The notes: generated from the sequence alone by a model not told the origin. DNA of 64,000 bases from an uncultured Chloroflexia bacterium (GCA_963741325.1 CAVUHJ010000002.1:59373-123372), one strand, 5' to 3'; counted from the first letter of the stretch, positions 21,182 to 62,476 are shown. Program-made: numbers and translations.

Positions 21182-21440
21182 CCCCTCTGATTGTGATCTT
21201 GCTTCGCATCCTATTGGAGAGGGGAGTTCTGTTTCATCCCGTTTTAGTCAAATTGATCCGAGAATGGCTTTTGATGCAGAAGAGCCGCCTCGTTCGGTTT
21301 GGTTAGCTTGGCTGGCTTCGTTCGCCTCGCTACGGACGCGCCTCATGCCGAGCAAAACGCTCGGCATCTTCAACCTTGGCGAGTACGATATCGTCATCAT
21401 GCGGTCGATGGGTGGGAGGCACATACGTGTAGCGGATCGC
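21182..21440 (-). pseudogene. Remnant of the 3' end and downstream flank of a lysK-like gene (outermost copy)
   Basis: 21199-21300 aligns by eye at about 75% with 29836-29940 (GCTTCGC.TCC..TGGAGAGG.GAG..CTGTTTCATCCC..CCGAGAAT.GC..AGAGC.CGCCTCGTTC). Confidence 0.45.
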
Positions 21441-21653
21441 CCCGTTGGGGCAGCCATCTACGCATTTCTTGCAGCCCTTGCACGCCTCCGCATGATCGAC
21501 GCGCGCATGACGATGATTGAAAAAGATTATTTTCCCAAGAACGCCGTTTGGGCATGACTCCACACATTTCCAGCAGGCCTGACATTTGCTGCGGTTGAGT
21601 TCAATGTACTTCGTGGTTGTGTGACTCCGTGAGTGCGAGCGTGCGTGTCGCAT
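21330..21653 (-). CDS. Small 2x[4Fe-4S] ferredoxin-like protein; its C-terminal about 30 codons run into the lysK-like remnant
   Basis: CQACWKCVESCP and CKGCKKCVDGCP cluster motifs; start taken at MRHARSH. Confidence 0.55.
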   Translation of the reverse strand: MRHARSHSRSHTTTKYIELNRSKCQACWKCVESCPNGVLGKIIFFNHRHARVDHAEACKGCKKCVDGCPNGAIRYTYVPPTHRPHDDDIVLAKVEDAERFARHEARP

Positions 21654-21733
21654 GGCTTTGGCCGTTCCTTTCCTTCGTTGACCTGACAGTCTGCCATCGG
21701 CGCAATCGCACCTCTCGCAGAGGTCCGTAGAGG

Positions 21734-21988
21734 TCACACCTGACTCTTGATCAGGCGCGTTAATTGACTCCATATCCAGGGGAGATGCAGGTACAAATGT
21801 ACACCAAGGGTGAGGCACATTGCAACCCCCGCGATCCCGTGGATCCGATGATACATAAACTGGATATGGGTGGCATCCCGCGCAGCAGTGTGCTCCATGA
21901 TTGCGGAGAAAACAACCATCCCCAGGAGTGCAAAAAGGAGAAAGTCTATCATCAGATGTGTTCGGGGCTTCACACCCTTAATCATCAT
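21734..21988 (-). CDS. Small membrane protein (DUF4405-like, His-containing TM helices)
   Basis: MMIKGVKPRTHLMIDFLLFALLG..; ATGA overlap with the upstream TetR stop. Confidence 0.45.
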   Translation of the reverse strand: MMIKGVKPRTHLMIDFLLFALLGMVVFSAIMEHTAARDATHIQFMYHRIHGIAGVAMCLTLGVHLYLHLPWIWSQLTRLIKSQV

Positions 21989-22600
21989 CGGGCCTTCCTT
22001 TTTGATCGGGATTCGCCGGCTTCCATGAATCCGGCACAAAAGAGCTCTTTCATTGCATGGTACAACTCTGCATCTGATAATCCGAAGGACTTCAAGCGTG
22101 GGTTGTCAAAGAGGTTAATAGCCACTTCCAGGAATACGGCTTTAACTAGTGGTCGGTTCAGCCCGGGCCGCAGCCGTGCCTTGCGATCTGTGGCGGCAAA
22201 AAGATGCTCAAATAAGCCGCTCAGCGTGGCAACCCGCACCTCCTGGACCGAACTGTAAACATCGGGGTAGAGGCGCTTCAACTCATCCATTCGAGCAAAC
22301 GCGTCGTCTGCGTGGCAGGGCGCTTAAGCCCTCCCCAATTTGATTCAAGATCTTCTCCCCATCTTCATGCGGGTTATGTTTCAGGTCCGCCAGGCCTTTT
22401 TCAAACACCTGCTCTACACGGAGGAACGTTTCGCGAACCAACCCCTTTTTATCTTCGAAGTGGCGATAGACGGTGACGCGCGTCACGCCCGCACGGTAGG
22501 CAACTTCATTTAGACTGGTCTTGGCGATCCCTCTCTCCGAGAACAACGCCAGCGTAGAGAGCAGGATCTTTTCACTGGTCTGGTCTTCGGGTTTGTTCAT
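21985..22600 (-). CDS. TetR/AcrR-family transcriptional regulator; frame broken near 22300
   Basis: ..ILLSTLALFSERGIAKTSLNEVAYRAGVTRVTVYRHF.. HTH; the C-terminal ligand domain is in the next frame. Confidence 0.8.
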
Positions 22601-22606
22601 GTTACA

Positions 22607-22635
22607 ATAGTATCATATTTTGTATCATCTGTCAA
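22607..22635 (-). promoter_or_regulatory. Sigma-70-like promoter placed for a leaderless TetR mRNA
   Basis: TTGACA-17 nt-TACTAT, then 6 nt to the ATG; the spacer holds GATAC direct repeats (GATGATACAAAATATGATAC). Confidence 0.45.
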
Positions 22636-22759
22636 ATCTGGGGCGCACGAACCTACAAACCACGTATGTTGAAGGCTCTCCCCAACCTGCCTGTGGATAA
22701 AACAGAACAGGCGTGCTACAATTTACGATTAACTACTCACCCCCCGTTGCTCGATTCCC

Positions 22760-22809
22760 CGGAAAATGAATATGGGCAGGGGAGAACACCCGCCCATATT
22801 CATTTTCCG
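22760..22809. repeat. 18-bp perfect-stem hairpin
   Basis: CGGAAAATGAATATGGGC-14 nt-GCCCATATTCATTTTCCG, intergenic. Confidence 0.8.
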
Positions 22810-22931
22810 AAGGTGCAGGTGTACTCCTTGCGCGGGATCTCTTTTCCCATTCCGTGATAACGGAAGGGGAAAAGCTAAAGGTACGTGAGTAGATACATTT
22901 ACGAATTATTTTTTACCGTTAGGAGTCACCC

Positions 22932-23483
22932 ATGGACAAAACCACACGCACCCATCTCGATAACCTTTGGTCTCAAGATAGAGAACTGCAGAACAAAGCC
23001 TTTACCTATATTCTAAAAGTCACGGACAAGCCGGTGGACTGGGCTTACGAGGCCTGGGACGAGCTTCTGCAGAGGCTGAGCAGCAAAGACAACCACGACC
23101 GCGCCATTGCGGCTCAGGTTCTCTGTAACCTTGCCAAAAGCGACCCGAAGAATCGGATGTTAAAGGATTTCAAAGCCCTGCTCGTGGTAACAAAGGATGA
23201 GAGGTTCGTCACCGCGCGGCATTGTATGCAGGCGCTGTGGAAAGTCGGCGTGGCAGGGATACATCAGCGACAGACATATCTGGATGGACTGGAACATCGC
23301 TTCAACGAGTGCATCGCGGAGAAGAACTGCACGCTCATCCGCTACGACATTCTGCGGAGCTTTCGGAATGTGTTTGATGAGGTGAAGGACGAGAAAATAA
23401 GGGCGAAGGCGCTTGAATTGATTCAAACCGAGGACGATCTGAAGTATCGCAAGAAATATACAACGCTGTGGAAAATGCAATAG
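22932..23483 (+). CDS. Hypothetical helical-repeat (HEAT-like) protein
   Basis: Intact 183 aa; RBS AGGAG upstream; no motif I can name. Confidence 0.4.
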   Translation: MDKTTRTHLDNLWSQDRELQNKAFTYILKVTDKPVDWAYEAWDELLQRLSSKDNHDRAIAAQVLCNLAKSDPKNRMLKDFKALLVVTKDERFVTARHCMQALWKVGVAGIHQRQTYLDGLEHRFNECIAEKNCTLIRYDILRSFRNVFDEVKDEKIRAKALELIQTEDDLKYRKKYTTLWKMQ

Positions 23484-23500
23484 GGAATGAGAAACCCAAA

Positions 23501-24728
23501 TCATTGACCGGTACGAGCGAGTACTGCTGTTATAGGCCAAATTATTTTATACGAATCCGGAAAAACTCCACTCTCGGCTCCAGCCGATAACTGTCGAAGG
23601 CGTTCAGTTTGTTCTGGTGAACTTGGGACATCAGGAAATAGCGCATGGGTAGTTGTGCCGGCAATATATGCGTCACTGTTACCAGTAAATTCAGTATATG
23701 GTACAAAGGCAAGAAAAGCCGTAAACCCGTCTTGATCCTTTGAGCTACCAGAACTCATCATCGCCGGATCAAGGTTATTTTAATATCGACTGTGCAGGAT
23801 TCGATGTAGTAATTACTTGAGCCGTGTCAACTGCAGAAAGAAACTGGGCATATTTTGTCGAAGATTGCGTTTGACCTACCGATACTGGCATTTCTGAAGG
23901 TTGTTGGACGAATGTAAAAAAGACAGATATACCGTCATAATCGGTCAACTGATAAAAATATGGAACGGACCGAATCGGGAGTTTAGATAAGAGTATAGAT
24001 GTCTCCGTTGGCGTAAGCATATCGCCCTTGGGATATAGTGCGTTAACCGCACTAACAACCGGAATATCGGTCAGCGTCCAAAGTATCGTTGGATCCGCTC
24101 CTTGAAAAAGCGTATCTAAATAACTATCAGGTAATTCATACGGTCTCCAAGCCGTTGCGATATCAGTCTCCGTTGATTTTAAGTCCCATCGCCAGAGGAT
24201 TATCGGTCAGTTCTTCCTTCGGATCCACTTTATGTCGCCGGATGTTTTGTCTATATCCCATGCGGCAGCATGGAGCACTGGATCGGTCGATCCGTACGGA
24301 AGTACGGCCGAAACGTCTGACGAGGAGAATCTCCACTGTTCACCACTCTGCAATGTGATTTGGAATTCTCCGTTGGGAAGCAAAACCAGATTATCCGTCA
24401 GATGCTGCCCGCCCTGATCAATATAATAATTGCCCGTTGTTGCATCTTTGATAAGGCCCAACTGTATTTGTCTAAGATTAGTATTCAATTTATCAACAAT
24501 TGCCTGCATCTGCTGTCCGGATATCGGCTGTACTGCCGGCGTAGGCGTCGCCGAAGGGATTTCGGTTGGTGAGGGCGTGGGCGAGGCAGCAGCTGCAGTT
24601 TGGGTTAGCAGCTCGGAAGCTGCCTGAGCCACAGCCGTCGCTATGTTATCCACCTTCGGCGAAGCCGGCCCCGTGGCGCAGGCAGCAAGGAAGATTACGA
24701 AAGCGATCATACAATAAATAGATTTCAT
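23501..24728 (-). CDS. Lipoprotein of about 400 aa; frame broken at least 3 times; lower-GC 3' half
   Basis: MKSIYCMIAFVIFLAAC lipobox; ORFs 24207-24764, about 23775-24175 and 23501-23761 continue each other across frame shifts. Confidence 0.45.
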
Positions 24729-24889
24729 TTCGCCTCCCAATGGGTGGTCATCGGAATTATACAACCCCCGATTGGCGCGCCTCGTTCGGTCAGCGCCGCC
24801 TGGCCCGGAGCTTTGATAAATTCAACATGATTTCATTGTATACTATCGAAAGCAACTTGTTTTGATGGCCTTCCACTTGACAATGTGTT

Positions 24890-27409
24890 TTGACCTATTA
24901 TGCGATGATGTCAACAGCAAAATCGAAGCCTTCTCTCCACAATTTACCCGCACGCTTGAGCACTTTTGTGGGGCGGGACCACGAGATCGCCGAAGTCAAA
25001 AGGCAGCTCTCGACCCAACGCTTGCTGACGCTCACGGGCCCCGGTGGTGCTGGTAAGACTCGTCTGGCCTTACAGGTAGCCGCTGGATTGTTGGCAGAGT
25101 TCGAAGATGGCGTGTGGTTCGCCGAACTCGCGTCTCTTGCCGACCCCGTGTTCGTGCCGCAGGCCCTGGCCTCCATTGTGGGTGTTTCTGAACAGCCGGG
25201 GCGTGCCTTGATTGGCGCGCTCACGGATCATTTTTTACATCTCCATTCCCTGGTTCTGCTCGACAACTGCGAGCATCTCATCGGCGCATGTGCGCAGCTC
25301 GCAGACACGCTTTTGAAAGCGTGTCCCGATTTATGGATTCTAGCCACAAGTCGCGAAATATTAGATATCCCGGGCGAAGCGGTTTTTGTCGTCCCGCCTC
25401 TTTCGCTGCCAAAACCTCAGCCTCGGCGGAATCCTGCAAGCGGCCCAGACGCTGTGCCGGCCTATGACGGATCTGAAGCGGTTCGTCTCTTTGTGGAACG
25501 GGCGGCGATCGTTTCGCCCTCCTTTGAGCTCACCGCCGACAATGGCATATGGGTGGCGGAAATTTGCCATCGTTTGGATGGCATGCCGCTCGCCATCGAA
25601 TTGGCGGCCGCGCGTGTGCGGGCTCTATCGGTGCAGCAGATTGCCGGGTATCTCGATGACCGGTTCCACCTCCTCACTGGCGGGAGTCGCACTGCGCCGC
25701 CTAGGCACCAGACGTTGGCGGCCGCACTGGATTGGAGTTATGCGCTGCTCTCGGAAGTGGAACAAAAAGTTCTGCATCGCCTATCGGTTTTTGCGGGCGG
25801 CTGGATGTTGGAAGCTGCTGAAGCCGTTTGCGCGGGCGATGGGGTCGAGGCGGCTGAAGTGTTGGATGCGTTGTCGCATCTCATCGACAAATCCCTGGTC
25901 GTGGCCGACAGGCACGACGATGAGATCCGGTATCACCTTTTGGAAACCATTCGCCAGTATGGACGCGAGAAGCTCGTGCAGGCGGGTGAGGGCGATGGGA
26001 TACGAGATAAGCACCTGAGCTACTATCTCCAATGGGCCGAGAAAGCCAGGGAGTACCTTGGCCGGCCAGAGCAATTTGCCTGGATAAACCGTTTTGAGGC
26101 CGAGCACGATAATATACGAGCCGCGCTCGAATGGAGCCTGGTCAGAGGCGACGGAGCGCTTGAAGTAATGCGGCTGACCTCTGCCACCAGCGATTTCTGG
26201 CAGCTGCGCGGCTATCTCACCGAAGGGCGAATGTGGCTTTCGGCCGCGCTTGCACATAAAGGAGCGCAGCAAAGCACCCTTACTCGTGCTCAAGCTCTCT
26301 ACCATACCAGCATGCTTGCTTTCTATCAGAGCGATTACGCGGTGGTGCGGACGTTGGCTGAGCAGAGTCTGGCGATCTCGAGGGACCTGGGCGCTGCCGG
26401 TCGGTGGGGAGTCGCCAATGCTTTGGAGATGCTGGCGGAAGTTGCTACTGAAACAGGTGATTATTCCGCGGCCCCCGCGCTGTATGAGCAAGCCCTGGCC
26501 ATATTCAAAGAATTAGAGGATTGGGCTGGCGTCGCAGTTGTGCTTAAGATGCTGGGCTGGGGGGCGATGCGCACCGGCGATTATGAGCAGGCACAATCGC
26601 GATTCGAGCAAGCTCTGGTTGCCTGCCGCCAGTCCGGGGATTTGCACCAAATCATCTCGGCCCTGGCCGGTTTGGGAGAGTTGGCGATACGCCGCGGCCA
26701 GTATGACCGGGCCGGCGACTTGCTCAGAGAGAGTCTGGAGAGCAGCCGGCGTTCGGGTGAAAAATGGAGCATTGCCATTGCGCTCGGCTCACTGGGGTGG
26801 GCGGCCTTGCTTCAAGGCGATTTCAAGGAAATGAGGAGATTGCTGGGTGAAAGCCTGAATGTCCGCATGCAAACCAGCGATAGAGGCGGCATTGCCTGGT
26901 GTTTGGAAAAACTCGCGGAAGCGGATAACCTGCAATCTCGCTTTCGGCCCGCCGCGATTATTTTTGGAGCGGCCTCTGCCTTGCGCTCCTCGGTGGGGTC
27001 CGTTATGGATGCCGCGGATCGGCCGGCTTATGAGCGTACGATTTCCATAATTCGAACGAACCTCGGCGAAGAGACGTTCACGGCAGCCTGGGAGGAGGGC
27101 CGCGCGTTGACGGTGGAGGTAGCCGTTGATTATGCTTTATCCGAACCGGTACTGCCCGCTGCTCAATCAGCGCAGGCGGTGAAGGAAGAATTCGGCGGGC
27201 TGACCAGGCGTGAGCGCGAAGTGGCGGTGCTGATTGCCCAGGGCAATTCCAATCGCGAGATCGCCCGCGCCATGACCGTCGGCGTGAAGACCGTCGAAAC
27301 ATATGTGACGCGCATGCTCGGTAAACTCGGGTTTAACTCGCGCGTGCAGATAGCCACCTGGACGATTCAGAAGGGGCTCATTGAAAGGAGTCAAAATGAA
27401 CCAGGCTGA
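24890..27409 (+). CDS. Large LuxR-family regulator (P-loop STAND ATPase + TPR + C-terminal LuxR HTH)
   Basis: Intact 839 aa; FVGRDHEIAEV..LTGPGGAGKTRLA; TPR-like repeats; ..LTRREREVAVLIAQGNSNREIA.. Confidence 0.75.
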   Translation: MTYYAMMSTAKSKPSLHNLPARLSTFVGRDHEIAEVKRQLSTQRLLTLTGPGGAGKTRLALQVAAGLLAEFEDGVWFAELASLADPVFVPQALASIVGVSEQPGRALIGALTDHFLHLHSLVLLDNCEHLIGACAQLADTLLKACPDLWILATSREILDIPGEAVFVVPPLSLPKPQPRRNPASGPDAVPAYDGSEAVRLFVERAAIVSPSFELTADNGIWVAEICHRLDGMPLAIELAAARVRALSVQQIAGYLDDRFHLLTGGSRTAPPRHQTLAAALDWSYALLSEVEQKVLHRLSVFAGGWMLEAAEAVCAGDGVEAAEVLDALSHLIDKSLVVADRHDDEIRYHLLETIRQYGREKLVQAGEGDGIRDKHLSYYLQWAEKAREYLGRPEQFAWINRFEAEHDNIRAALEWSLVRGDGALEVMRLTSATSDFWQLRGYLTEGRMWLSAALAHKGAQQSTLTRAQALYHTSMLAFYQSDYAVVRTLAEQSLAISRDLGAAGRWGVANALEMLAEVATETGDYSAAPALYEQALAIFKELEDWAGVAVVLKMLGWGAMRTGDYEQAQSRFEQALVACRQSGDLHQIISALAGLGELAIRRGQYDRAGDLLRESLESSRRSGEKWSIAIALGSLGWAALLQGDFKEMRRLLGESLNVRMQTSDRGGIAWCLEKLAEADNLQSRFRPAAIIFGAASALRSSVGSVMDAADRPAYERTISIIRTNLGEETFTAAWEEGRALTVEVAVDYALSEPVLPAAQSAQAVKEEFGGLTRREREVAVLIAQGNSNREIARAMTVGVKTVETYVTRMLGKLGFNSRVQIATWTIQKGLIERSQNEPG

Positions 27410-27884
27410 ACGCAGCGCAAAGATCGAAGAGTACGGACGCGGATTCGATTTGTTTACCGCCGCACTGGCCGAGCTCCCGCGTGAGGCCTGGGAGTTCAGG
27501 CCCGCGCCTGGCGAGTGGAGCGTCCATGAAGTCATTGTACACATGGCAGATAGTGAGTCTATCGGCGCGTTGCGCGTCCGTACATTGATTGCCGAACCGG
27601 GCAGTACCCTGATGCCGTATGATGAGGCCAAATGGGCCGAGGCGCTCAACTACCTGAACCAGAACGCGGACGACGCCCTGCAAAGCTTCAGACTGACGCG
27701 GCAGACGACCTATCGCCTGCTTCAGAATTTGCCGGACCCGGTATTCACCCATTCGGTGATCCACCCCGTGTTCGATGAACCTTATACGTTCGATCAATGG
27801 CTCGGCATTTACACGGCTCATGTGCCCGAGCATGTGGGACAATTAAAGAATAACTATCGGGCATGGAAAGAACAAAAGAAGTAA
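27396..27884 (+). CDS. DinB-family (DinB_2) four-helix-bundle protein
   Basis: ..WSVHEVIVHMADSE.. and ..YTAHVPEHVGQL.. His triad pattern. Confidence 0.65.
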   Translation: MNQAERSAKIEEYGRGFDLFTAALAELPREAWEFRPAPGEWSVHEVIVHMADSESIGALRVRTLIAEPGSTLMPYDEAKWAEALNYLNQNADDALQSFRLTRQTTYRLLQNLPDPVFTHSVIHPVFDEPYTFDQWLGIYTAHVPEHVGQLKNNYRAWKEQKK

Positions 27885-27948
27885 TTCCTTCTCTTCCGCA
27901 TCCGGAAAAAACAACCAAAGCATCTCAAATAATCATTCCGAGGACAGC

Positions 27949-27978
27949 AAGCCGCGCGAAATAGGCGCGGCTTTTTTT
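27949..27978 (+). terminator. Intrinsic terminator
   Basis: AAGCCGCGC-gaaatag-GCGCGGCTT followed by TTTTTT. Confidence 0.7.
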
Positions 27979-28009
27979 GCGTGACATCGGAAACAGTGCC
28001 TCAGGAAAA

Positions 28010-28055
28010 TGTAGGGGGTATGCAACGTGCATTTGTAGTGTTTTCCCTGACGACA
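28010..28055 (+). promoter_or_regulatory. Shared upstream module, copy a
   Basis: TGTAGGGGGTATGCAACGTGCATTTGTAGTGTTTTCCCTGACGACA; the last 24 nt are identical at 28521-28544. Confidence 0.4.
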
Positions 28056-28129
28056 GGCGGCGGCTAAGGACGTAAGATGTGTCCAACATTCGGCCGGGCT
28101 TTCCGGCAAACAAAAAGGAGAAAAAACTC

Positions 28130-28342
28130 ATGTCCGCCATCCGTGCCACAATCATGTCCCTAGTATTGGTACTCGTTGTTACTGCAGCCGTCTACTTCGC
28201 CGCGGTTCCACTGCCTGCGATGGCTGCGAAGCCTGCTGCGAGCTGCCCAGTGCCAGGCGTCAGCGCTTTCTCGCTCAGCAATGAGGCTTTGTGGAATATC
28301 CTGAACGGGCGCTATCAGCGCCGCATCGACCTGCCCCGCTAA
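28130..28342 (+). CDS. Small secreted or membrane-anchored protein (70 aa)
   Basis: AAAAGGAG RBS; MSAIRATIMSLVLVLVVTAAVYFAAVPLPAMAA signal-like N-terminus. Confidence 0.4.
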   Translation: MSAIRATIMSLVLVLVVTAAVYFAAVPLPAMAAKPAASCPVPGVSAFSLSNEALWNILNGRYQRRIDLPR

Positions 28343-28422
28343 ACCAAGTTTGCAGGCCCCAAATCTGGACGTTCGTGCTTAAGAGATGCTTTCACGGTTT
28401 CTCCTCCAAAAAGCACACGTCA

Positions 28423-28458
28423 GCCCGCACCAGAGATGCTCTGGTGCGGGCCTTTTAT
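28423..28458 (+). terminator. Intrinsic terminator
   Basis: GCCCGCACCAG-agatgct-CTGGTGCGGGC then CTTTTAT. Confidence 0.6.
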
Positions 28459-28499
28459 ATCTTGTACAGCAGATGGAATGAAGAACCCCCATGGAATAT

Positions 28500-28544
28500 T
28501 GTAGGGGTGTGTGCGGGGCGATTGTAGTGTTTTCCCTGACGACA
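28500..28544 (+). promoter_or_regulatory. Shared upstream module, copy b
   Basis: TGTAGGGGTGTGTGCGGGGCGATTGTAGTGTTTTCCCTGACGACA, 115 nt upstream of the 28660 ATG. Confidence 0.4.
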
Positions 28545-28659
28545 TTTGGCCGCAGAACGCGTAAATTAGAGCTAAGTCCTTGCGGCGAAGGCAATTTCAA
28601 GCAAGCGTCACCATTGAGATGTAAGACACAGCATCTATCCCTGAAAGGAGAACTTTCAA

Positions 28660-28911
28660 ATGCCACTCTTTTTGGATATTCACCAGCATGTGCCCGGATT
28701 GACGGCTGAAGCCGTTGCCGGGGCTCATGAGAAAGACCTTCAAGCCCAGTCTAAACACGGCGTGAAATACTTGAAATACTGGTTCGATGAAAGCACCGGT
28801 AAAGTCTTTTGTCTGGCGGAGGCTCCGAGTAAAGAGGCGGCCGCAGCAGTCCATCGCGAGGCGCACGGTCTTCTCGCCGATGAGATTATCGAAGTGCAGG
28901 AAGGCGCCTAA
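28660..28911 (+). CDS. DUF4242-family small protein (SCO4226-like ferredoxin fold)
   Basis: MPLFLDIHQHVPGLTAEAVAGAHEKDL..YLKYWFDE..GKVFCL..ADEI pattern; RBS AAAGGAG. Confidence 0.55.
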   Translation: MPLFLDIHQHVPGLTAEAVAGAHEKDLQAQSKHGVKYLKYWFDESTGKVFCLAEAPSKEAAAAVHREAHGLLADEIIEVQEGA

Positions 28912-29204
28912 GATCTCGTGCCGAACTTGCCCCAGCCATCCGCCGCTGGCTGGGGCAAGCAACAAGCCGCATCACTTTTTGGGGGAGAAAAATACCAAAC
29001 CGTCCTTTATGACGTAGTTTTAACACACAGCGGAAGGGGAAAACCACCGCTTTTTCTTTTAGCGAAACGAACGCCAGGAGAAGCCTTGGCGAAAGCGTCC
29101 AAGAATAGACCTCGTCCCCGGTCGTCTTCGGCGCGCCTCGCGGCCCTCTGATTGTGACCCTGCTTGGCATCCAAAGTAAGCAGTAACTCCATAATAACGC
29201 CAAT

Positions 29205-29735
29205 CTATGACAACTCAGTTTCTATAAACTTCCTAATTCTCTCATCTGTAAGTTCAACAACAACATTTGGCACACGCTTTCTAAATAATCTTGTCAGTTC
29301 AACATAAAGCCACTCTGCATCCTCCCAAAGAGTTGGCTCATCTGCCCTATAAATGTCAATAACTTCTTTAAAAAAGCGCCAATAACTAAACAAGGTGGAT
29401 GAATAATAAACATAAACTAGTTGCTTATCCAAGATTCTTTTACGGAGAAGAAATCCTATAATTTCATAATGATCTAAGAAGAAGGTTGCATATGCGATAA
29501 ATTGGTTTTGGTCTTTCCTGTTTAATTGCCCCTCAATTTTCTTCTTGACGATTTTTGCAAACCTCAAGCGCCGATCCAGAAACTCATCGCTGCTGAATTC
29601 ACCTGAGTACTTCATCAGAGTATCAATACCTCGACCGATTGCTGCCCGTCTCGCCTCTATCCAAATCGCTATAATCGCGACAAATGCAGCAAGTACAGTC
29701 GCCCAAGCACCAATGGCGCCATAATCAATTTCCAT
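29205..29735 (-). CDS. Hypothetical N-terminally membrane-anchored protein in a low-GC (about 37%) patch
   Basis: Intact 176 aa; one TM (GAWATVLAAFVAIIAIWI) then a Lys/Phe/Tyr-rich helical domain. Confidence 0.45.
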   Translation of the reverse strand: MEIDYGAIGAWATVLAAFVAIIAIWIEARRAAIGRGIDTLMKYSGEFSSDEFLDRRLRFAKIVKKKIEGQLNRKDQNQFIAYATFFLDHYEIIGFLLRKRILDKQLVYVYYSSTLFSYWRFFKEVIDIYRADEPTLWEDAEWLYVELTRLFRKRVPNVVVELTDERIRKFIETELS

Positions 29736-29804
29736 TTTACACTCCCTATTTTATGATTTGACAATTTCATATTACACCCACCTTGCTCAAATCGTCCACC
29801 CCCT

Positions 29805-30150
29805 TCCCTCTGAGAGCGATTCTGGAAGAGATACCGCTTCGCGTCCAACTGGAGAGGCGAGCCTGTTTCATCCCATTTGAGGCGCTAATCGCAACCGAGA
29901 ATAGCGCTTAAGGCAGCAGAGCTCGCCTCGTTCTGTCAGCTTTGCTTGCTCCAACCACAAGCAACGAAATATGTTCATCGGGGCTATGGTCGAGGGCGGG
30001 ATCAACCCGGGCCGTAAACCACCGCGGGGCACTTACATACTGGTGCGACGATGTTCAAGTCGGCATTCCCGGATTTATAAACGAAGCCGGGCTTTCCACC
30101 CGCCGAGCGGGGCCAACCAGCAAATGCATAAACAGCAGCAGTATAACGGT
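29805..30150 (-). pseudogene. 5'-truncated copy of the lysK 3' end with its own stop and downstream flank (middle copy)
   Basis: Encodes ..[38 protein letters not shown].. versus authentic ..[38 protein letters not shown]..; about 80% nt identity by eye over about 150 nt. Confidence 0.65.
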
Positions 30151-30162
30151 GATAATAGTACC

Positions 30163-30191
30163 TTGACAGACATAGTACTTTGTTGTATATT
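30163..30191 (+). promoter_or_regulatory. Sigma-70-like promoter placed for a leaderless PadR mRNA
   Basis: TTGACA-17 nt-TATATT, then 6 nt to the ATG at 30198. Confidence 0.45.
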
Positions 30192-30197
30192 GTACCT

Positions 30198-30539: not shown

Positions 30540-30553
30540 GGAGATGTGATGGT

Positions 30554-54600: not shown

Positions 54601-55022
54601 GTAAAAAGCGTGCCCAAAGCTACGACATCGCAGAGGTCGAAGGCATCGGCCCTGCCTATGCCGCGCGGCTGAGGAAATTAGGCATCCATACGACCGACGA
54701 ACTGCTGAAGGTGGCCGATTCCCGCAAAGGCCGGCAGGTGCTTTCCGAAAAGAGCGGCTTCTCCGTCGAGCGGATCCTGGAATGGGTGAACCGCGCCGAC
54801 CTGATGCGCGTGCCTGGCGTCGGTTCGGAATACAGCGACCTGCTCGAAGCGGGCGGCGTGGATACGGTGAAAGAGCTTCGCCGTCGCAACGCTGAAAACC
54901 TCTATAACACGCTCCGCAGGGTCAACCAGAGGAAGAAGCTGGTTCGTCGCCTGCCCGACCTGGAAGAGGTACAGGCCTGGATCGCCTCCGCCAGGAAGAT
55001 GAAAACGCTCGTAACGTATTGA
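51623..55022 (+). CDS. About 1130-aa composite protein: signal/anchor, vWA domain, beta-sandwich repeats, nine Leu-rich TM helices, small cytoplasmic domain, DUF4332-like C-terminus; frame broken about 9 times (could be 2 genes)
   Basis: GTG after AGGAGAG; ..VVLLIDDTGSM.. and ..LLLTDGTPED.. (vWA MIDAS); TM array 53500-54240; ..YDIAEVEGIGPAYAARLRKLGIHTTDELL..VPGVGSEYSDLLEAGGVDTVKEL.. Confidence 0.55.
53515..54235 (+). repeat. CTG-rich quasi-repetitive coding block (tandem Leu-rich TM modules)
   Basis: Recurrent GATCCTGCTGCTGCTCCTGCTG-like strings; nine helices of type (F/S/Y)W.LLILLL.. Confidence 0.6.
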
Positions 55023-55037
55023 AATAAGACACTTACT

Positions 55038-55224
55038 AAAGATGTTTTGGGAGTTCTACGCCTTTTCAAAAACGAGCAAAGCGGGTCCTGATCTCAATTT
55101 TGGGATGTGGACGGTGCTTTCCCGTTCACATCCCAAAATTAGGAATCCTCTCCTCCCCTAAAGGGGAGGTGGGGTGGGGTCTCTGTGACTAAATACCAAA
55201 ATCCTTATCTCGAGCTAATGTTAA
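55038..55224. repeat. About 185-bp non-coding insertion flanked by TAA; core 55096-55203 is the inverted homologue of 15409-15528
   Basis: Absent from the otherwise homologous site at 58622-58631; contains hairpin AATTTTGGGATGTGGACGG..CCGTTCACATCCCAAAATT. Confidence 0.6.
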
Positions 55225-55229
55225 ATAGA

Positions 55230-55267
55230 AACAGGCTTCGGTGTGAAGAACAACCACCGAAGCCTGT
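55230..55267 (+). terminator. Hairpin terminator of the DUF4332-type gene
   Basis: AACAGGCTTCGGTG-11 nt-CACCGAAGCCTGTT then CTTATTT. Confidence 0.55.
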
Positions 55268-55309
55268 TCTTATTTCAGAAAAAAAATACTATTTCTTCGT
55301 TCTTTCTTC

Positions 55310-55385: not shown

Positions 55386-55890
55386 TCATAATACCGGGTG
55401 TTCAACCGCTGTTTGTTCGCCGCTCTGCTCCGACTTTTTCTTTACCACATTCGTCAGGGCGCTCAGGCCGCGTGCAAGCGCGCTCAAATCATCATCGCTC
55501 AGGTTAACCAGCCAGCGCTGCCACTGTTTCTCGCGCTCGCTTGCGACGTCCTTCACCGATCTCTGCGCCCTGCTCGCTGAGAGTCACCACCGTCTGGCGT
55601 CGATCGGTCTCATGCTCCGTGCGGACCACGAGGCCGCGCGCCACCAGTTGCTGCACCAGGATACTGGCCGTGGGGTTCCCAACGCCCAGCATGCGCGCCA
55701 GCTGGCTGACGGTCATGGCCTTGTTCGCCGCCAGGATGATCACAGCCCTGGCCTGCGCAAACGTCAGTTCGAGCATCAGCCAGTGCGAGACCGCATTGAA
55801 CTGCATGATCACGAACAAATCCATATAGGCCTGCACGATCGCGCCGACGAGTTGGGGCCGGCTTTGCGCCGTATTTTTCACGGGTTTCAT
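55386..55890 (-). CDS. MarR-family transcriptional regulator; frame broken near 55570
   Basis: ..LTFAQARAVIILAANKAMTVSQLARMLGVGNPTASILVQQLVARGLVVR..; natural C-terminus recovered in the next frame; ATGA overlap with the upstream gene. Confidence 0.75.
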
Positions 55891-58458
55891 TTCGGCTCCT
55901 CCGCTTTCAGGACCAGGCCGCGCGAGCCATCCACCCTGATCCATTGTCCATCTTGCAGCTGCCGCGTGCCGTTTACCGTGCCCATCACCGCCGGTACGCC
56001 GTATTCACGGGCCACGATCGCGGCATGCGAAGCAGAGCCTCCGGTATCCACGACCACCGCCGCCGCATGCTGGAAAAGCGGCGTCCAGGCCGGGTTGGTG
56101 ACCGGGGCCACCAGCACATCCCCTTGCCGCAATTTTCCGAACTCGGAAGCATCCAGTATGATCCGCACCGGGCCGCTTGCCATGCCCGGGCTGCCCGATG
56201 AACCGCTTAAAAGCACATCCTGCTCCCTGCCCTTCCGCGGAGCGAGGGCCAGCAAGCGCGGGTCCACCATCGGCGTATCCCCCAGCGATTTGCGCTTGGC
56301 TTTGCGGCGTGAAACAAGCTCTCTGATCCGGTCAATGGTATGGGAAGGCAGCGGCCACGTGTCGCCTACCGATTTAAGCTCTTCCAGCCGCAAATGAAAT
56401 ACATCCGCTGCCGTCTCGAGCGCGCCGGCCTTTTCCAGGCGCTGACCGAGTTCGAGGGCCATGTGCCGGATGGGCGGCTGGGATAACGTCAAATAGAAAT
56501 GGGTGTCCTCGCGGATTTGAAAAAGTGCACGCGCATTGCCCAGCGACTTCAGGAACAGGTTGCGGAGGGCCTTCGTGCCCAGCATCGAATGTGCCAGTAA
56601 CTCGTCCCGTGCCCGCTGCCAGGCTCCGTTATTTTGCTCCTGCTTTGGCCCCACGCTCACCAGCACTTTCAAAATCCCGAGCACGATCTCGGGTTGATCC
56701 TTCCAGGCCGGTTCTGAAATCGTGAGCACCGTCTCGCGGTGGCCGTATCGATCCAGGAAATTATCGAGGTCCTTCAGAAAAGCCTGCCCTGCCGGTGAGC
56801 CCTTTAGGACCGATCCTAATTCGCGCACCTCATTCCGGGCAAATGCCTCTCTCAGCCCCGCGTCAAACCGGGCCTGCCTGGCCAACGCCTCCAGCGCCAG
56901 GTTGGTTTCCGTCGTCTTGGTCTGTACGCCCGAGACCAACTCGCTAAAGGCTAGCCCCGCGGCCCGCCAGCTTAAGCAGCATCCATAACAGTCCCAATCC
57001 CAGGAGCGCCTGGGGCAGATACAGCTCGCGGACCTTCATGCCGCGCGGGATCAGGCCCAGCGCCTCATGCAGCGCCTCGATATTCTGCGCCCAGGTCAGC
57101 GATCCCGGGTTCAGCCCATCGAGTTCGTTCACCCCGGTTATATACTCACGCAATAACGGGTCGGCTTCCCAGCGTGACGGGTCATAATGGCGCGTCCGCC
57201 ACAGGGCAAGCAGGGGATTGATGATCACCAGCGGCGACGGATAGAATTTGGGTGGTTGGAAGCGCACCACCACGCCCTCCTCCTCAAACAAGGCCTCGTC
57301 CGGGTTCGGCGCATCCTTGCCGATCATGGCGGTCAGCAGATTGCCGATACTGCGTTCCACTGCGCCTGTAAAAGTCGTCACGTCCAGCGGATAGGGACGC
57401 ACCGGCCACATCTCCGCCAGCATGGGGACGATCAGCCGCATCGCTCCGGTGACTTTCAGAGGCCTCGGCAAAGCAGTGATCGGCCGCGCCTGCAGGATAA
57501 AGAACTTCCCGGTTGTACGGGTTTCCTTGATCCATGCCCATTCGATATCCTGGTATTTGCGGTAAAACGTCTCGATCTTGACCCCCAACTGCGCAAGCTT
57601 TTTGATCTCTGATTTGGGTAGGGCCGCCTCGCCCACCGCTGAATGATCCGACGTGACTTGCTCGGTACCGCCCCCGGCTTTGGCGCGCACGATCACCTCC
57701 CGCCTGCCGGAAGTCTGTTCCTTGATGCGCTTTGTGCGCTTCTCGACCACGTAATGATCCGGCGTGACCGCGCCGCTCACCACGGCTTCGCCCAGCCCCG
57801 GGTTCGCGTCGATCACCACCACGTTCAGCAGGCCGCTGACCGGGTCCGCGGTGAACATCACACCGGCTGCATCGGCCGGGACCATGCGCTGCACCACCAC
57901 CGCCAGTTTAACGGACGCCTGGTCTACATTTTGGTGAGCACGGTAGAGGATTGCGCGCTCCGACCACAGCGACGCCCAACAACCGCGCACCGCTTCGAGC
58001 AGCGCGGGTTCGCCGATAACATTCAGGAAGGTTTCCTGTTGTCCGGCGAAGGCGGCTTCAGGCAGGTCTTCCGCGGTCGCACTCGAACGGACCGCGACCC
58101 CGTCACCGCCCAGCCGCTGATAAGCCTTCATGACCTCATCGGTTATCTCTGGCGGAAGCGGGACATGCTCGAATAGGTCGCGGATGTCCTGGCTGATCTT
58201 TGCCAGCGCTTCGGGCTGGTCGGGTTGGAGGGCAGCGACGAAAGCCTCCAGGCGGGAACGCAGGTCCTTGTCCTGCAAAAGCAGGTCATAAGCGGCTGTG
58301 GTAATGACAAAGCCGGCCGGTATGTCGAACCCTCCGCGTGATAACTCGCCCAGGTTCGCGCCTTTTCCACCTGCCAGCAGCAGATCGTTGTGCCCAAAAC
58401 GGGAAAGCGGCGCGACGAGAGGGCGGCGAAGGCGATCGGATAGATTTGCAAGAGACAT
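55887..58458 (-). CDS. PEP-utilising enzyme with rifampin-phosphotransferase-like architecture (PPDK_N ATP-grasp + central domain + swivel His domain); frame broken near 56940
   Basis: ..LLAGGKGANLGEL.., ..VRSSATAEDLPEAAFAGQQETFLNV.., C-terminal ..VVDTGGSASHAAIVAREYGVPAV..; about 855 aa total. Confidence 0.7.
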
Positions 58459-58569
58459 GCTTCACTCCGAAGATTTAATATGAGATGGAACGACTTGCTT
58501 ATATTGATTTATATTACCAAAATGGTTTGATTTTGTCAAACTATTTTATTATGAGAATATAAATTGATA

Positions 58570-58685
58570 GCCTCGGCAAGGAAAATGAAAACGGTCGTAA
58601 AGTATTGAAATAAGATACTTGCTTATAACGAATAGGCTTCGGCGTGAGGTTCAACCACCGAAGTCTGTTATCTTAGAAAAAACAA
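58570..58685 (+). repeat. Relic copy of the last about 18 codons, stop and terminator hairpin of the DUF4332-type gene
   Basis: GCCTCGGCAAGGAAAATGAAAACGGTCGTAAAGTATTGAAATAAGATACTTGC versus 54985-55037 (about 87% by eye), then hairpin AATAGGCTTCGGCG..CACCGAAGTCTGTT. Confidence 0.7.
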
Positions 58686-59578: not shown

Positions 59579-59848
59579 TCTTTTAATCTCCTTGAGGGCT
59601 AGCTGCTTTAGCAACCGTCTACTGCGCGGTTTGGTAGACCACTTTTGAACTTAATCTTACATCATAATGGTAGCTTATAGCTGTATCTCGAAAGACGCCT
59701 GGCATAAGCCTGGATTTGATCCCCGCTCTCAATCCCAGTTCAAGGAAGTCTGTTGCGAGCCGGCTCGGTCACGTGAGAGTGATCGAACCACGCAGCACCA
59801 GGGCCTTGTGATGATCCGACCTGTTCCTGGCACGGTATAATGTTTTTT

Positions 59849-60108
59849 GAGTCGAAAACAAACACACATCCCAAGGGTCATCCGGGAGGCAGAGTGGAGA
59901 GTTCTTTTCCAACCTCGGGCCCGGTTTAATTTCCGGGGCAGCCGATGATGACCCTTCCGGGATCTCAACCTACTCTGTGGCCGGGGCAACTTTCGGCTAT
60001 CTGCCTCTATGGATGGCGCTCTTTTCTTATCCATTGACAGCTGCATTGCAATTGATGTGCGCGGTTTTGGGCATGGGTAACCGGGCGGGGCCTGGCGGGC
60101 GTGATACG
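59849..60108 (+). pseudogene. 3'-truncated copy of the 5' end of the Nramp gene (about 85 codons)
   Basis: Encodes ..GPGLISGAADDDPSGISTYSVAGATFGYLPLWMALFSYPLTAALQLMCA..; about 88% nt identity by eye to 61187-61448. Confidence 0.7.
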
Positions 60109-60275
60109 ACTTCTTGCTGACGATCCTACAGAGCCGCCGCGCGAGAGTCTGTAAAGCGACCCGTTTACAACTTTAGAGAATCTGTTATGCTTGAGACGCG
60201 CCTAACTACCTCGCTGCGCAATTGCCGCGAGCATAGGGCACTGGTTCCATTATGCATGAGTATTGAGGTGGTGGG

Positions 60276-60918
60276 ATGAGATTGCCAAAGCATGTCGGCG
60301 TGATTCCAGATGGAAATCGAAGATGGGCGCAAGCCAGACGTCTGGCCAAAGGCAAAGGATACGCGAACGGGTTGGACTGGCTTTGACCTTCCTTAAGCTG
60401 GCCCAAACAGCCGGGATCAAGGAGCTGACGGTCTACGGGTTTACCATGGAGAACAACAGGAGACCACCGGTACAGAGAAAAGCGTTTACAGACGCCTGCA
60501 TTCGTGCAGTGGATCTTCTTTCCAGAGAGGATGCGGAGCTGTTGGTAGTTGGGAATACGGATTCACGCTTCTTCCCGAAAGAATTGCTTCCTTACACTTC
60601 CGAGCGAAGGACCTTCGGCGATGGAGGCATAAAGGTTAATTTTCTGGTGAACTATGGATGGGAATGGGACTTGGACAAGTTGAAAACGGCCGATCCCACG
60701 CGCACAAATATCATGGATCACGTGCAATCTTCTAGATTTCCAGGATAGATCTCATTATTCGCTGGGGAGGCAGGAGCAGGTTGAGCGGTTTTCTGCCCGT
60801 GCAGTCTATTTACGCCGACATTTATGTTGTGGATGAATTTTGGCCGGATTTCGAACCGGAGCATTTTTTCCGGGCTCTGAAGTGGTACACAAAACAGGAT
60901 ATTACGCTTGGCGGCTAG
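60276..60918 (+). CDS. cis-prenyltransferase (undecaprenyl-diphosphate synthase family), short paralogue; frame broken near 60385 and 60745
   Basis: [18 protein letters not shown].. and ..[35 protein letters not shown].. Confidence 0.7.
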
Positions 60919-61168
60919 GGCTATCGTTGAGGCACAGGGCCCTACAGAGCTATATATATTCATGTGTATTATACGAATGTCAAAAGAACCGATTTTCGCC
61001 CGATTGAGAGCTTACGAAGGCATGAGGACATACCGCGAACGTGCTCGGCTGTGTATGTTGGTATTTCGTTCTACGGAAGCTAAGGAACATGATCGTGGAT
61101 TTTGACAGGTGAGGTCAAACGGTATCATTAAAGCGTAAACGCGGCTGGCTGTAAATTTCAAATGACAT

Positions 61169-62476
61169 ATGGATAAATCAAACACCGAGTTGAAAACAAA
61201 CACGACATCCCAAGCGGCATCCGGGAGGAAGGGTTGGAGAGTTCTTTTCCAACCTCGGGCCCGGTTTAATTACCGGCGCCGCCGATGATGACCCTTCCGG
61301 GATCTCCACCTACTCCGTCGCCGGGGCAGCCTTCGGCTATCTGCCGCTGTGGATGGCGCTCTTTTCTTTTCCATTAACGGCTGCACTGCAATTGATGTGC
61401 GCACGTCTCGGCCTGGTGACCGGGCGAGGCCTGGCGGGCGTCATACGCCGTTATTATCCGCGCTGGGTGCTGTGGGGAGCTTGCTCGCTGTTGATCGTGG
61501 CGAATGTGTTCAACATCGGCGCCGACCTGGGCGGGATGGCGGCAGCCACAGCCCTGGTCACGGGGGTCAAGTCATTTTACTGGACGCCCATTTTTACGGC
61601 GGTGATCATTCTGGTGCTGATTTTCTCCTCCTACCGGCTCATCGCAAAGATCTTCAAATGGCTGACGCTCGTGCTCTTTTCTTATATTCTGACGGCTTTT
61701 CTGGCTCAACCCGATTGGGGCGCGGTCCTGCATGCCACCTTTATTCCGCAGGTTTTATGGTCCAGCGCGTTCCTTGCGGCTTTTGTCGGGATCCTCGGCA
61801 CGACCATCAGCCCCTATCTTTTCTTCTGGCAGGCCTCCCAGGAAGTCGATGAAGAGAGAGCACAGGGCAAGACGACGGTCGCCAGACGCAAAGGCGCAAC
61901 GGATGAGGAATTGCGTATTGCCCGGACCGACGTTCTGGTCGGGATGTTCTTTTCCAACCTGGTGATGTACTTCATCATCCTGACGACTGCCGCCACATTA
62001 CATGCTCACGGCAGTACCGATATCCAGACCGCACAACAAGCGGCGCTGGCTTTGCGTCCACTGGCCGGCCCGTGGGCTTATCTTCTCTTCACGATCGGCA
62101 TCATCGGTACGGGCATGCTGGCCGTTCCGGTCCTGGCAGGCTCCGCCGCCTACGCCATCACCGAAGCGGAGAAATGGCGTGGAAGCCTGGAATCCCGGCC
62201 CAATGTAGGCGAAGCGATTTTATGCCGTCGTGGCGGTTTCGATGCTCCTGGGGCTGGCTCTTGGATTTTGTCGGGTTCAACGCGGTCAGGATGCTTTTTT
62301 ATTCGGCGGTTCTCAACGGTGTTCTGGCCCCGCCCCTGATCGTCCTGGTCACGCTGCTGACGAGCAACCCCAAAGTCATGGGCAAGCGTGTCAGTCCGCC
62401 TCTCCTGCGTTATTTGGGTTGGGCCACGGCAGCCATCATGGCCATCGCAGCCATTGGAATGTTCTTAACGCTGTAA
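61169..62476 (+). CDS. mntH: Nramp-family divalent metal transporter; frame broken near 61204 and 62220
   Basis: ..GPGLITGAADDDPSGISTYSVAGAAFGY.. DPGN-type motif region; 11-12 TM. Confidence 0.7.

What the first reader, a model, noticed from the sequence alone, without database searches (positions are those of the whole stretch)
21182..61448. Recurrent architecture: small cargo cassettes flanked by long imperfect direct repeats of host-gene termini, with no recombinase nearby
Independent loci share one layout: a partial copy of a gene end, then 1-8 kb of cargo, then the intact gene end. They are lysK 3' (two nested events), DUF4332-gene 3' and Nramp 5'. The repeats are 120-350 bp and 75-90% identical, which is far longer than transposase target duplications. 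The cargo looks like resistance or regulatory functions: an efflux pump, a pentapeptide protein, an RPH-like kinase and a prenyltransferase. No integrase, relaxase or transposase lies inside any cassette. Three explanations fit. The elements could be mobilised in trans by a site-specific recombinase. They could arise from homology-facilitated capture during transformation. Or an undescribed cassette-exchange mechanism could be at work.
Basis: inference. Interest (0 to 1): 0.8.

Follow-up and report, generated by a model that had tools for sequence, protein, structure and literature searches.

The report
Displaced gene-end fragments flanking acquired genes
Small blocks of accessory genes in this Anaerolineales genome sit between a normal gene end and a leftover piece of a second, diverged version of that end, which most likely marks ordinary homology-driven gene acquisition from relatives, not a new kind of mobile element.

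Summary
The repeats are real, with self-BLAST E-values from 1e-12 to 4e-88, but they are partly mis-described. B is an internal, near-3' lysK fragment of 144 bp at 84% identity. D is the last 43 nt of a DUF4332-domain gene plus its terminator. N is codons 1 to about 86 of Nramp (262 bp, 88%). A (114 bp, 76%) is non-coding and is not lysK.

Mismatches between partial and intact copies fall mostly at third codon positions (27 of 39). The fragments are therefore pieces of once-functional diverged alleles, not duplications decaying in place.

In sister genomes the lysK cassette and the MarR/RPH cassette are syntenic, and the D repeat is conserved. One sister has an empty Nramp site whose promoter matches the flank of N1. 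The PadR-pentapeptide-ABC cassette is 90% identical in an unrelated context that has no flanking repeats.

The cassette ORFs scanned carry no recombinase domain, and the junctions share no motif by eye.

Best reading: additive integration by host homologous recombination, either a Campbell-type single crossover or homology-facilitated illegitimate recombination. A recombinase acting in trans is not excluded. That reading draws on serial copies in one sister and a lysK fragment starting at nearly the same position in a distant relative.

This is a known kind of event in a new lineage, of moderate to low interest.

The parts
20061..20943 (-). Intact IS5-family insertion sequence with 18-bp terminal inverted repeats and two ORFs (HTH_Tnp_4, DDE_Tnp_4). 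It lies just outside repeat A2.
   Evidence: Pfam; inverted repeats
21201..21310 (.). Repeat A2: non-coding, immediately downstream of the stop codon of the Fer4 gene.
   Evidence: no Rfam family
21311..29835 (.). Cargo A: Fer4, DUF4405, TetR, a 183-aa ORF, a lipoprotein, a STAND-TPR-LuxR regulator, DinB and DUF4760. It is absent from sister locus L076.
   Evidence: Pfam; tblastn; BLAST
29836..29948 (.). Repeat A1: non-coding, 17 nt beyond the lysK fragment B2. It is not similar to the lysK end.
29966..30109 (-). B2: internal near-3' fragment of a diverged lysK allele. It has one indel and lacks the last 57 nt of the gene.
30128..32967 (+). Cassette B: PadR (30180-30539), pentapeptide protein (30554-31420), ABC ATPase (31430-32059, frameshifted) and ABC-2 permease (32196-32963). 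It is a discrete unit running from the -35 box to just past the stop codon.
   Evidence: Pfam; 85% identical to L076; 90% identical to L163-L167 in another context
33100..34197 (-). lysK ([LysW]-lysine hydrolase, M20 family), with three frameshifts. It contains repeat B1 at 33157-33299.
51543..55022 (+). Large protein gene with a C-terminal DUF4332 domain, fragmented by frameshifts. It is 1132 aa in sister L161.
54980..55037 (+). D1a: last 43 nt of the DUF4332 gene, its stop codon and 15 nt beyond.
55038..55229 (.). MITE-like insert of about 190 bp with an internal hairpin. A copy lies at 15381-15529. It is absent from D1 in L161 and L162.
55230..55284 (+). D1b: terminator hairpin of the DUF4332 gene.
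55504..58458 (-). Cargo D: MarR (55504-55944) and an RPH-like PEP-utilising kinase (55887-58458, split). It is syntenic in L161 and L162.
   Evidence: Pfam
58566..58682 (+). D2: displaced copy of the DUF4332 gene end plus terminator. It is conserved at the same place in L161 and L162.
59779..59848 (+). Promoter region upstream of N1. It is 88.6% identical to the promoter of the single-copy Nramp in L162.
59849..60108 (+). N1: codons 1 to about 86 of a diverged Nramp allele. The start codon is lost, there are indels, and the roughly 110-nt leader is missing.
60262..60920 (+). Cargo N: a UppS-like cis-prenyltransferase, full length across three frames.
   Evidence: Pfam; three-frame translation
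61190..62480 (+). Nramp transporter gene, frameshifted. It contains repeat N2, which spans 61187-61447 and so begins 3 nt upstream of the start codon.

Best explanation
Each repeat pair consists of two different alleles of the same stretch of a conserved gene: the working gene end and a leftover fragment of a second, diverged allele. I propose they arose when DNA from a related lineage entered the cell carrying its own copy of that gene end next to extra genes. The host's general homologous recombination machinery then integrated it additively.

Two routes would do this. One is a single (Campbell-type) crossover between a circularised fragment and the resident gene end. The other is one homologous crossover plus one illegitimate join, known as homology-facilitated illegitimate recombination (HFIR). 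Either route leaves cargo bracketed by an intact gene end and a displaced partial copy, and neither needs an element-encoded recombinase.

Shown:
- The copies diverged mainly under purifying selection.
- One partial copy still abuts the ancestral flank.
- The cassettes scanned lack recombinase domains.
- The same cassette occurs elsewhere without such repeats.

Inferred:
- The recombination route itself.
- The direction of transfer.
- Later small deletions: the last 57 nt of lysK after B2 and the leader before N1.
For: 1. Codon-position test. Mismatches between partial and intact copies by codon position are N 6/2/15 and B 2/2/12, with 27 synonymous against 12 non-synonymous. Third positions account for 27 of 39 mismatches (p=5e-6 against 1/3, p=0.003 against the 0.46 expected for duplication followed by decay). 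Changes private to the partial copies show the same bias (N1 4/2/11, B2 2/2/6).

2. Empty site. Sister contig L162 has a single Nramp. Its promoter matches the 70 nt upstream of N1 (88.6%), and its leader matches the region upstream of N2.

3. Chimerism in N. With L162 as reference, the first ~90 nt give 3 N1-private and 5 N2-private sites, and the remainder gives 16 and 3. A crossover inside the repeat predicts this switch.

4. No recombinase or relaxase domain was found in the cassette ORFs scanned.

5. Cassette B is 90% identical in nucleotide sequence in contigs L163-L167, where it sits between PFK and SIS genes with no flanking repeats. Contexts L168-L170 also lack them. The repeats are therefore not a property of the cassette.

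6. Precedent. Single crossover of a circular molecule carrying a truncated lacZ end produced 109-950 bp gene-end duplications in E. coli (PMC3240628). HFIR-type displacement has been proposed for orphaned 3' ends in T6SS and Rhs arrays (PMC5361080). Many HGT hotspots lack mobile-element genes and show recombination in flanking core genes (PMC5635113).
Against: - No donor arrangement was found for N. None of the 80 Nramp loci has a UppS-like gene upstream.
- B2 lacks the last 57 nt of lysK and N1 lacks the leader, so extra deletions must be assumed.
- B shows no chimerism, and lysK shows no clear identity breakpoint against L076.
- In L060, a distant relative with 59% LysK identity, a lysK 3' copy starts within 24 nt of the position where B starts. 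That hints at site preference.
- D2 is retained in three genomes whose outer flanks all differ. L162 carries a serial array: copyA, then AbiE, then copyB.
- The statistics rest on 16-39 sites.
- Natural competence, or any other DNA uptake route, is unknown for this lineage.
Confidence: 0.55

Rival explanations
1. The cassettes are remnants or satellites of site-specific integrative elements that target gene ends and carry a surrogate gene end in their attachment site. The integrase has either been lost or acts in trans, as with cis-mobilisable elements or tandem accretion. Repeated integration at the same site pushes older cargo and older gene-end copies outwards.
For: - The layout matches attL-cargo-attR with a displaced native gene end.
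- A lysK 3' copy in distant L060 starts within 24 nt of the position where B starts in the window, with different cargo.
- L162 has a serial array: DUF4332 gene, MarR/RPH, copyA, AbiEi/ii, copyB.
- D2 is conserved in three genomes while both of its sides vary.
- Arrays separated by partial target copies are described for tycheposons (10.1101/2020.12.28.424599).
Against: - No integrase domain was found in the window cassette ORFs scanned, and none is annotated or evident in the L162 or L060 cassettes.
- The four junction sets share no motif by eye.
- Three unrelated genes are targeted, at both 3' and 5' ends.
- The 5' edge of D2 differs by 15-20 nt between genomes.
- Small convergent genes downstream of lysK in L006, L008, L009 and L014 have no flanking repeats.
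- Cassette B moves without such repeats.
- The N repeat is chimeric in its interior, not joined at a fixed core at one edge.
Confidence: 0.2
2. These are ordinary local duplications of gene ends, arising from tandem or segmental duplication or replication slippage around inserted DNA. The extra copy then decayed neutrally in place.
For: The partial copies carry indels and have lost start or stop codons. Each partial copy is most similar to its own intact partner (B2-B1 84%, N1-N2 88%).
Against: - The third-position and synonymous bias of the differences, including those private to the partial copies.
- The cargo itself is not duplicated.
- N1 and N2 have different upstream regions, each matching a different relative.
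- Divergence of 12-24% would require very old junk DNA to persist.
Confidence: 0.05
3. The repeats are an assembly artefact: the contig is a chimera of related strains or species in a metagenome-assembled genome.
For: Many genes in the window are broken by frameshifts, for example three in lysK. That indicates an error-prone long-read assembly.
Against: - The D architecture is present in two other assemblies.
- lysK with cassette B recurs in L076.
- The junctions are not at homologous points where an assembler would switch paths.
- Divergence of 12-24% is far above the indel error level.
Confidence: 0.03

Closest known systems
Campbell-type single-crossover integration of a circular molecule carrying a truncated gene end (E. 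coli lacZ experiments, PMC3240628)
   Same: It produces inserted DNA bracketed by an intact gene end and a partial duplicate of 109-950 bp, and needs no element-encoded recombinase. The chimeric pattern in the N repeat fits this route.
   Different: Here the two copies are 12-24% diverged natural alleles. The source of any circular DNA is unknown, and nothing has been shown experimentally.
Homology-facilitated illegitimate recombination and displacement arrays: orphaned 3' ends in T6SS effector-immunity, Rhs and CDI loci (PMC5361080)
   Same: An incoming module carrying its own copy of a conserved gene part displaces the resident end downstream. Serial events build arrays of cargo separated by gene-end remnants, as in L162.
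   Different: The target genes here are housekeeping or transport genes, not polymorphic toxins. One case involves a 5' end. Junction microhomology could not be examined.
Integrative elements that rebuild the target gene end, cis-mobilisable elements and tycheposon arrays (PMC5704250; 10.1101/2020.12.28.424599)
   Same: Direct repeats derive from the end of a target gene. Cargo-only units lack an integrase. Tandem accretion is separated by partial target copies.
   Different: No integrase or its remnant was found, there is no tRNA target and no identical core. The repeats are long and diverged throughout.
Recombination-driven HGT hotspots without mobile-element genes (PMC5635113)
   Same: Variable accessory genes lie between conserved genes, with no integrase or transposase in the cargo and signs of recombination in flanking genes.
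   Different: That model uses double crossover and leaves no duplicated gene end. Here one breakpoint falls inside the flanking gene and leaves a visible scar.

Membership tests
Homology-driven additive integration (Campbell-type single crossover or HFIR) | The two repeat copies are distinct alleles that diverged while functional, not copies made at insertion. | tested here: met
   Third-position mismatches are 27 of 39, with 27 synonymous against 12 non-synonymous. Private changes of N1 (4/2/11) and B2 (2/2/6) show the same bias.
Homology-driven additive integration (Campbell-type single crossover or HFIR) | The partial copy remains contiguous with the ancestral flank of the gene. | tested here: met
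   For N, the 70 nt upstream of N1 match the promoter of the single-copy Nramp in L162. This could not be tested for B or D, whose outer flanks differ in all genomes.
Homology-driven additive integration (Campbell-type single crossover or HFIR) | The repeats are chimeric, with a crossover inside the homologous segment (single-crossover version). | tested here: inconclusive
   N switches from 3 N1-private and 5 N2-private sites to 16 and 3 at about nt 90. B shows no switch. Site counts are small.
Homology-driven additive integration (Campbell-type single crossover or HFIR) | Microhomology at the illegitimate junction, and an identifiable donor arrangement. | not testable with these tools
   No donor sequences are available. 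A UppS-like gene is not upstream of Nramp in any of the 80 loci. A lysK-cassette B adjacency does exist in L076.
Site-specific integrative element, cis-mobilisable element or tycheposon | A tyrosine or serine recombinase in or next to the element. | tested here: not met
   Pfam scans of the cassette ORFs found none. The only mobility gene nearby is an IS5-family transposase outside A2. No recombinase is annotated or evident in the L162 or L060 cassettes.
Site-specific integrative element, cis-mobilisable element or tycheposon | Insertion at a fixed position in the target, with a short identical core shared by both att copies. | tested here: inconclusive
   The lysK copies in the window and in L060 start within 24 nt of each other. 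The edges of D2 vary by 15-20 nt, and no common motif is seen at the junctions.
Integron gene cassettes | An IntI integrase with attI, and cassettes ending in attC imperfect palindromes. | tested here: not met
   No integrase was found. The repeats are gene-end sequences. Only D contains a hairpin, and that is the gene's terminator.
Transposon or IS target-site duplication | Short identical direct repeats of 2-14 bp flanking terminal inverted repeats. | tested here: not met
   The repeats are 114-262 bp and 76-88% identical. The cassette ends carry no terminal inverted repeats.
Tandem or segmental duplication with decay | Differences spread evenly over codon positions, and duplicated intervening sequence. 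| tested here: not met
   for codon bias. Self-BLAST shows no cargo duplication.

The most novel reading that the evidence does not exclude
In this Anaerolineales lineage, gene-end copies may act as recombination sites for an unidentified recombinase encoded elsewhere in the genome. That would build integron-like serial arrays of promoter-to-stop cassettes at the ends of housekeeping genes. The hints are the copyA-AbiE-copyB array in L162, the retention of D2 in three genomes whose flanks vary, and a lysK 3' copy starting within 24 nt of the same position in a distant relative.
Probability: 0.1. Interest if true: 0.8.

Novelty: new member of a known kind. Interest (0 to 1): 0.35.

Why it matters
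If the reading is right, these fragments are datable scars. They show how an uncultured Chloroflexota lineage gains resistance-type and regulatory genes without mobile-element machinery, by recombining with DNA from relatives at the ends of conserved genes.

Such scars could be used to map recombination-driven gene gain in metagenome-assembled genomes. The mechanism itself is already documented in other bacteria, so the value is as an example and a method, not as a new principle.

Tried and rejected
- **Exact-protein look-ups.** The DUF4332 and pentapeptide proteins returned nothing, and the 127,837-bp contig that carries the identical RPH and DUF4332 proteins could not be retrieved.
- **RNA.** Rfam at gathering threshold found only tRNA-Gln. 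Repeat A gave no Rfam match at E<=1 apart from a chance miRNA hit, and no convincing consensus fold.
- **Repeat A against lysK.** A compared with the lysK end and its downstream region, in both the window and L076, scored no better than shuffles.
- **Relics in L076.** A search for a lysK relic after PadR gave only a marginal 19-nt match.
- **Other lysK loci.** A search for lysK 3' copies in all 80 lysK loci found only L060.
- **Small convergent genes.** Repeats flanking the small convergent genes downstream of lysK in L006, L008, L009 and L014 were not found.
- **Empty site for L060.** None could be identified among the loci.
- **Mosaic breakpoints.** Sliding identity of Nramp against L081 and L082, and of lysK against L076, gave no clear breakpoint.
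- **Junction motifs.** Inspection of 60 nt on each side of all repeat edges showed no shared motif.
- **ORF-poor stretch 27890-29210.** A six-frame reading looked for a decayed recombinase. It showed only a small ORF that I recognise from memory as DUF4242-like.
- **Other repeat in the range.** The 70% repeat at 37775-38181 vs 42135-42534 was set aside as probably paralogous genes.
Full report
**What is in the sequence**

A self-BLAST of the window gives four dispersed imperfect direct repeat pairs within 21.2-61.4 kb.

- A: 21201-21310 vs 29836-29948, 76% over 114 bp.
- B: 29966-30109 vs 33157-33299, 84% over 144 bp.
- D: 54980-55037 vs 58566-58623 (86%) plus 55230-55284 vs 58631-58682 (80%).
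- N: 59849-60108 vs 61187-61447, 88% over 262 bp.

E-values run from 1e-12 to 4e-88, so none is chance.

Nramp was identified from its translation and from the Pfam annotation of its L162 orthologue.

The organism belongs to the Anaerolineales, judging from the record titles of the loci that match its LysK. Many genes are broken by frameshifts, so the assembly is indel-prone.

**Anatomy of each pair**

*B.* B1 lies inside lysK. The gene continues for another 57 nt of genuine C-terminal coding sequence beyond the repeat. B2 is therefore an internal near-3' fragment, not the terminus.

*A.* A1 starts 17 nt after B2, and A2 starts right after the stop codon of a Fer4 gene. A is non-coding. It has no significant similarity to the lysK end or to its downstream region, and it matches no Rfam family. 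"Two nested lysK events" is therefore not supported. A remains a repeat of unknown nature that may once have been lysK-downstream DNA.

*D.* The unit is the last 43 nt of the DUF4332 gene, its stop codon and its terminator hairpin. Copy 1 is split by a MITE-like insert of about 190 bp, which also occurs at 15381-15529.

*N.* The repeat starts 3 nt before the Nramp start codon and covers about 86 codons. The prenyltransferase between N1 and N2 is full length when read across three frames.

*Mobility genes.* No recombinase or relaxase domain was found in the cassette ORFs scanned. An intact IS5-family IS (20061-20943) lies 258 bp outside A2.

**The key test: are the partial copies decaying duplicates or pieces of other alleles?**

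Mismatches between each partial copy and its intact partner fall mainly on third codon positions.

| Pair | Mismatches at codon positions 1 / 2 / 3 | Synonymous | Non-synonymous |
|---|---|---|---|
| N | 6 / 2 / 15 | 16 | 7 |
| B | 2 / 2 / 12 | 11 | 5 |

Together, 27 of 39 mismatches are at third positions. That gives p=5e-6 against an even spread, and p=0.003 against the roughly 0.46 expected if one copy had decayed neutrally since a duplication.

Changes private to the partial copies, judged against the intact gene plus a sister orthologue, show the same bias: N1 4/2/11 and B2 2/2/6. Most of the divergence therefore accumulated while both sequences were parts of working genes. The fragments are remnants of diverged functional alleles. 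This argues against simple duplication and decay.

**Comparison with relatives**

*lysK locus.* A scan of species-representative genomes with LysK returned 80 Anaerolineales loci.

- The closest is L076, at 88% nucleotide identity. It carries the same four-gene cassette downstream of lysK at 85% identity. It has an extra 1.9 kb between lysK and the cassette and no lysK fragment after it.
- The window's 18.6-30.1 kb stretch, which includes B2, A1, cargo A, A2 and the IS, is absent from L076.
- None of the other lysK loci has the cassette.
- What lies downstream of lysK is highly variable, with 140 protein clusters among about 200 ORFs.

*DUF4332 and Nramp loci.* Homologues of the RPH-like protein led to two sister contigs, L161 and L162, which are 80-91% identical to the window across the aligned blocks.

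- Both have the DUF4332 gene followed by MarR and RPH, and both have a D2-like copy upstream of RPH. The D architecture therefore predates the split of three genomes.
- Their D1 lacks the MITE-like insert.
- L162 additionally has AbiEi/AbiEii between two partial copies, so it carries a serial array.
- L162 also has a single Nramp, which is an empty site for N. Its promoter matches the 70 nt upstream of N1 (88.6%), and its leader matches the region upstream of N2. N1 is therefore best read as the remnant of the ancestral resident allele, still in its original context.
- With L162 as reference, the N repeat looks chimeric. In the first ~90 nt, N1-private and N2-private sites number 3 and 5. In the remainder they number 16 and 3. 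A crossover inside the repeat would produce this. B shows no such switch.

**The cassettes themselves**

Cassette B is a discrete unit. Window 30151-32967 is 90% identical to metagenomic contigs L163-L167, where it sits between PFK and SIS genes. That is closer than its 84% identity to the cassette in the sister genome L076.

The shared sequence runs from the -35 box of the PadR promoter to a few nucleotides past the ABC-2 stop codon. It has no terminal repeats.

Neither that context nor three others (L168-L170) has flanking gene-end repeats. The ABC-2 permease is at least 91% identical in Bacillota and Chloroflexota. The cassette is therefore widely transferred, but the gene-end repeats are not part of how it moves.

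**Mechanism**

The best-supported account is additive integration by the host's homologous recombination. DNA from a related lineage brings its own allele of a conserved gene end plus new genes. It then recombines by one of two routes: a single crossover as a circle, or one homologous crossover plus one illegitimate join.

Both routes are documented.

- In E. coli, single crossover of circles carrying a truncated lacZ end gave duplications of 109-950 bp (PMC3240628).
- HFIR-type displacement has been proposed for the strings of orphaned 3' ends in T6SS, Rhs and CDI loci (PMC5361080).
- Many HGT hotspots lack mobile-element genes and show recombination in flanking core genes (PMC5635113).

Shown here are the allelic nature of the copies, the ancestral flank of N1, the absence of recombinase domains in the cassette ORFs scanned, and the independence of cassette B from the repeats. 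Inferred are the route, the donors and the secondary deletions: the missing 57 nt after B2 and the missing leader before N1.

**What argues for something more specific**

- A distant relative, L060 (59% LysK identity), has its own lysK 3' copy of 186 bp at 73% identity. It reaches the stop codon, brackets a different single gene, and starts within 24 nt of the position where B starts. For two random breakpoints in a 1-kb gene the chance of this is roughly 5%. Detection bias toward the conserved motif could also explain it.
- D2 is retained in three genomes while the sequence on both of its sides varies. L162 shows serial copies.
- Similar short pairs occur in the sister contigs: the YgjP end in L161, and two pairs in L076.
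- Dispersed direct repeats of at least 90 bp number about a dozen in 2 Mb of other Anaerolineales loci, against three in this 64-kb window. The loci were not sampled at random.

These points keep a site-specific system acting in trans (CIME-like or tycheposon-like) alive at about 0.2. A dedicated novel system stands at about 0.1.

**Verdict**

This is a new example, in an uncultured Chloroflexota lineage and at housekeeping genes, of a known kind of recombination scar. Interest is 0.35.

Noticed in passing
window 30151-32967; L163-L167, L168-L171: The PadR-pentapeptide-ABC-ABC2 operon is a sharply bounded 2.8-kb unit running from the -35 box to just past the stop codon. It is 90% identical in nucleotide sequence in an unrelated genomic context. 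Its ABC-2 permease is at least 91% identical in Bacillota and Chloroflexota among thousands of hits. The cassette alleles are mosaic: the PadR region is 93% identical to L164 but 67% to the sister L076. In L169 and L170 two DUF1048 genes take the place of the pentapeptide gene.
   Followed up: partly
window 55038-55229 and 15381-15529: A MITE-like element of about 150-190 bp with an internal hairpin, 75% identical between the two copies and in opposite orientation. It sits between the stop codon and the terminator of the DUF4332 gene in the window but not in L161 or L162, so it is a recent insertion.
   Followed up: partly
window 12063-12122 and 18509-18568; L076 2450-2508 and 6540-6596: A promoter-like repeat of about 60 bp that contains TATATAAT, upstream of different genes. 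In L076 the two copies bracket cassette B.
   Followed up: no
window 38876-38918 and 63315-63357; L161 3784-3856; several copies in L018: A repeat of about 43 bp, 95% identical and in inverted orientation, that recurs in other Anaerolineales contigs. It may be a REP-like intergenic element.
   Followed up: no
window-wide, e.g. lysK 33100-34197, Nramp 61190-62480, UppS-like 60262-60920, RPH 55887-58458: Frameshifts or in-frame breaks occur in many otherwise conserved genes, about one per few hundred bases in places. This is typical of an unpolished long-read assembly and does not indicate true pseudogenes.
   Followed up: partly
window 20061-20943: An intact 883-bp IS5-family insertion sequence with 18-bp inverted repeats and two overlapping ORFs, which may be joined by programmed frameshifting.
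   Followed up: partly
L162 8723-9744: An AbiEi/AbiEii toxin-antitoxin pair lies between two partial copies of the DUF4332 gene end in a sister genome. It is absent from the window and from L161.
   Followed up: partly
L162 3004-3110; window 61106-61189: A leader of about 110 nt lies between the -10 box and the Nramp start codon, partly conserved among relatives. Rfam finds nothing there in the window. It could be an undescribed metal-responsive leader.
   Followed up: no
window 37775-38181 and 42135-42534: A 70% identical direct repeat over 410 bp, 4.36 kb apart. It probably reflects paralogous genes, and similar pairs at similar spacing occur in several other lysK loci.
   Followed up: no
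L170 5649-5697 and 8923-8969: A 49-bp fragment of the cassette's ABC ATPase gene, 90% identical, lies 2.2 kb downstream of the cassette in another genome. It is another small gene-fragment scar.
   Followed up: no
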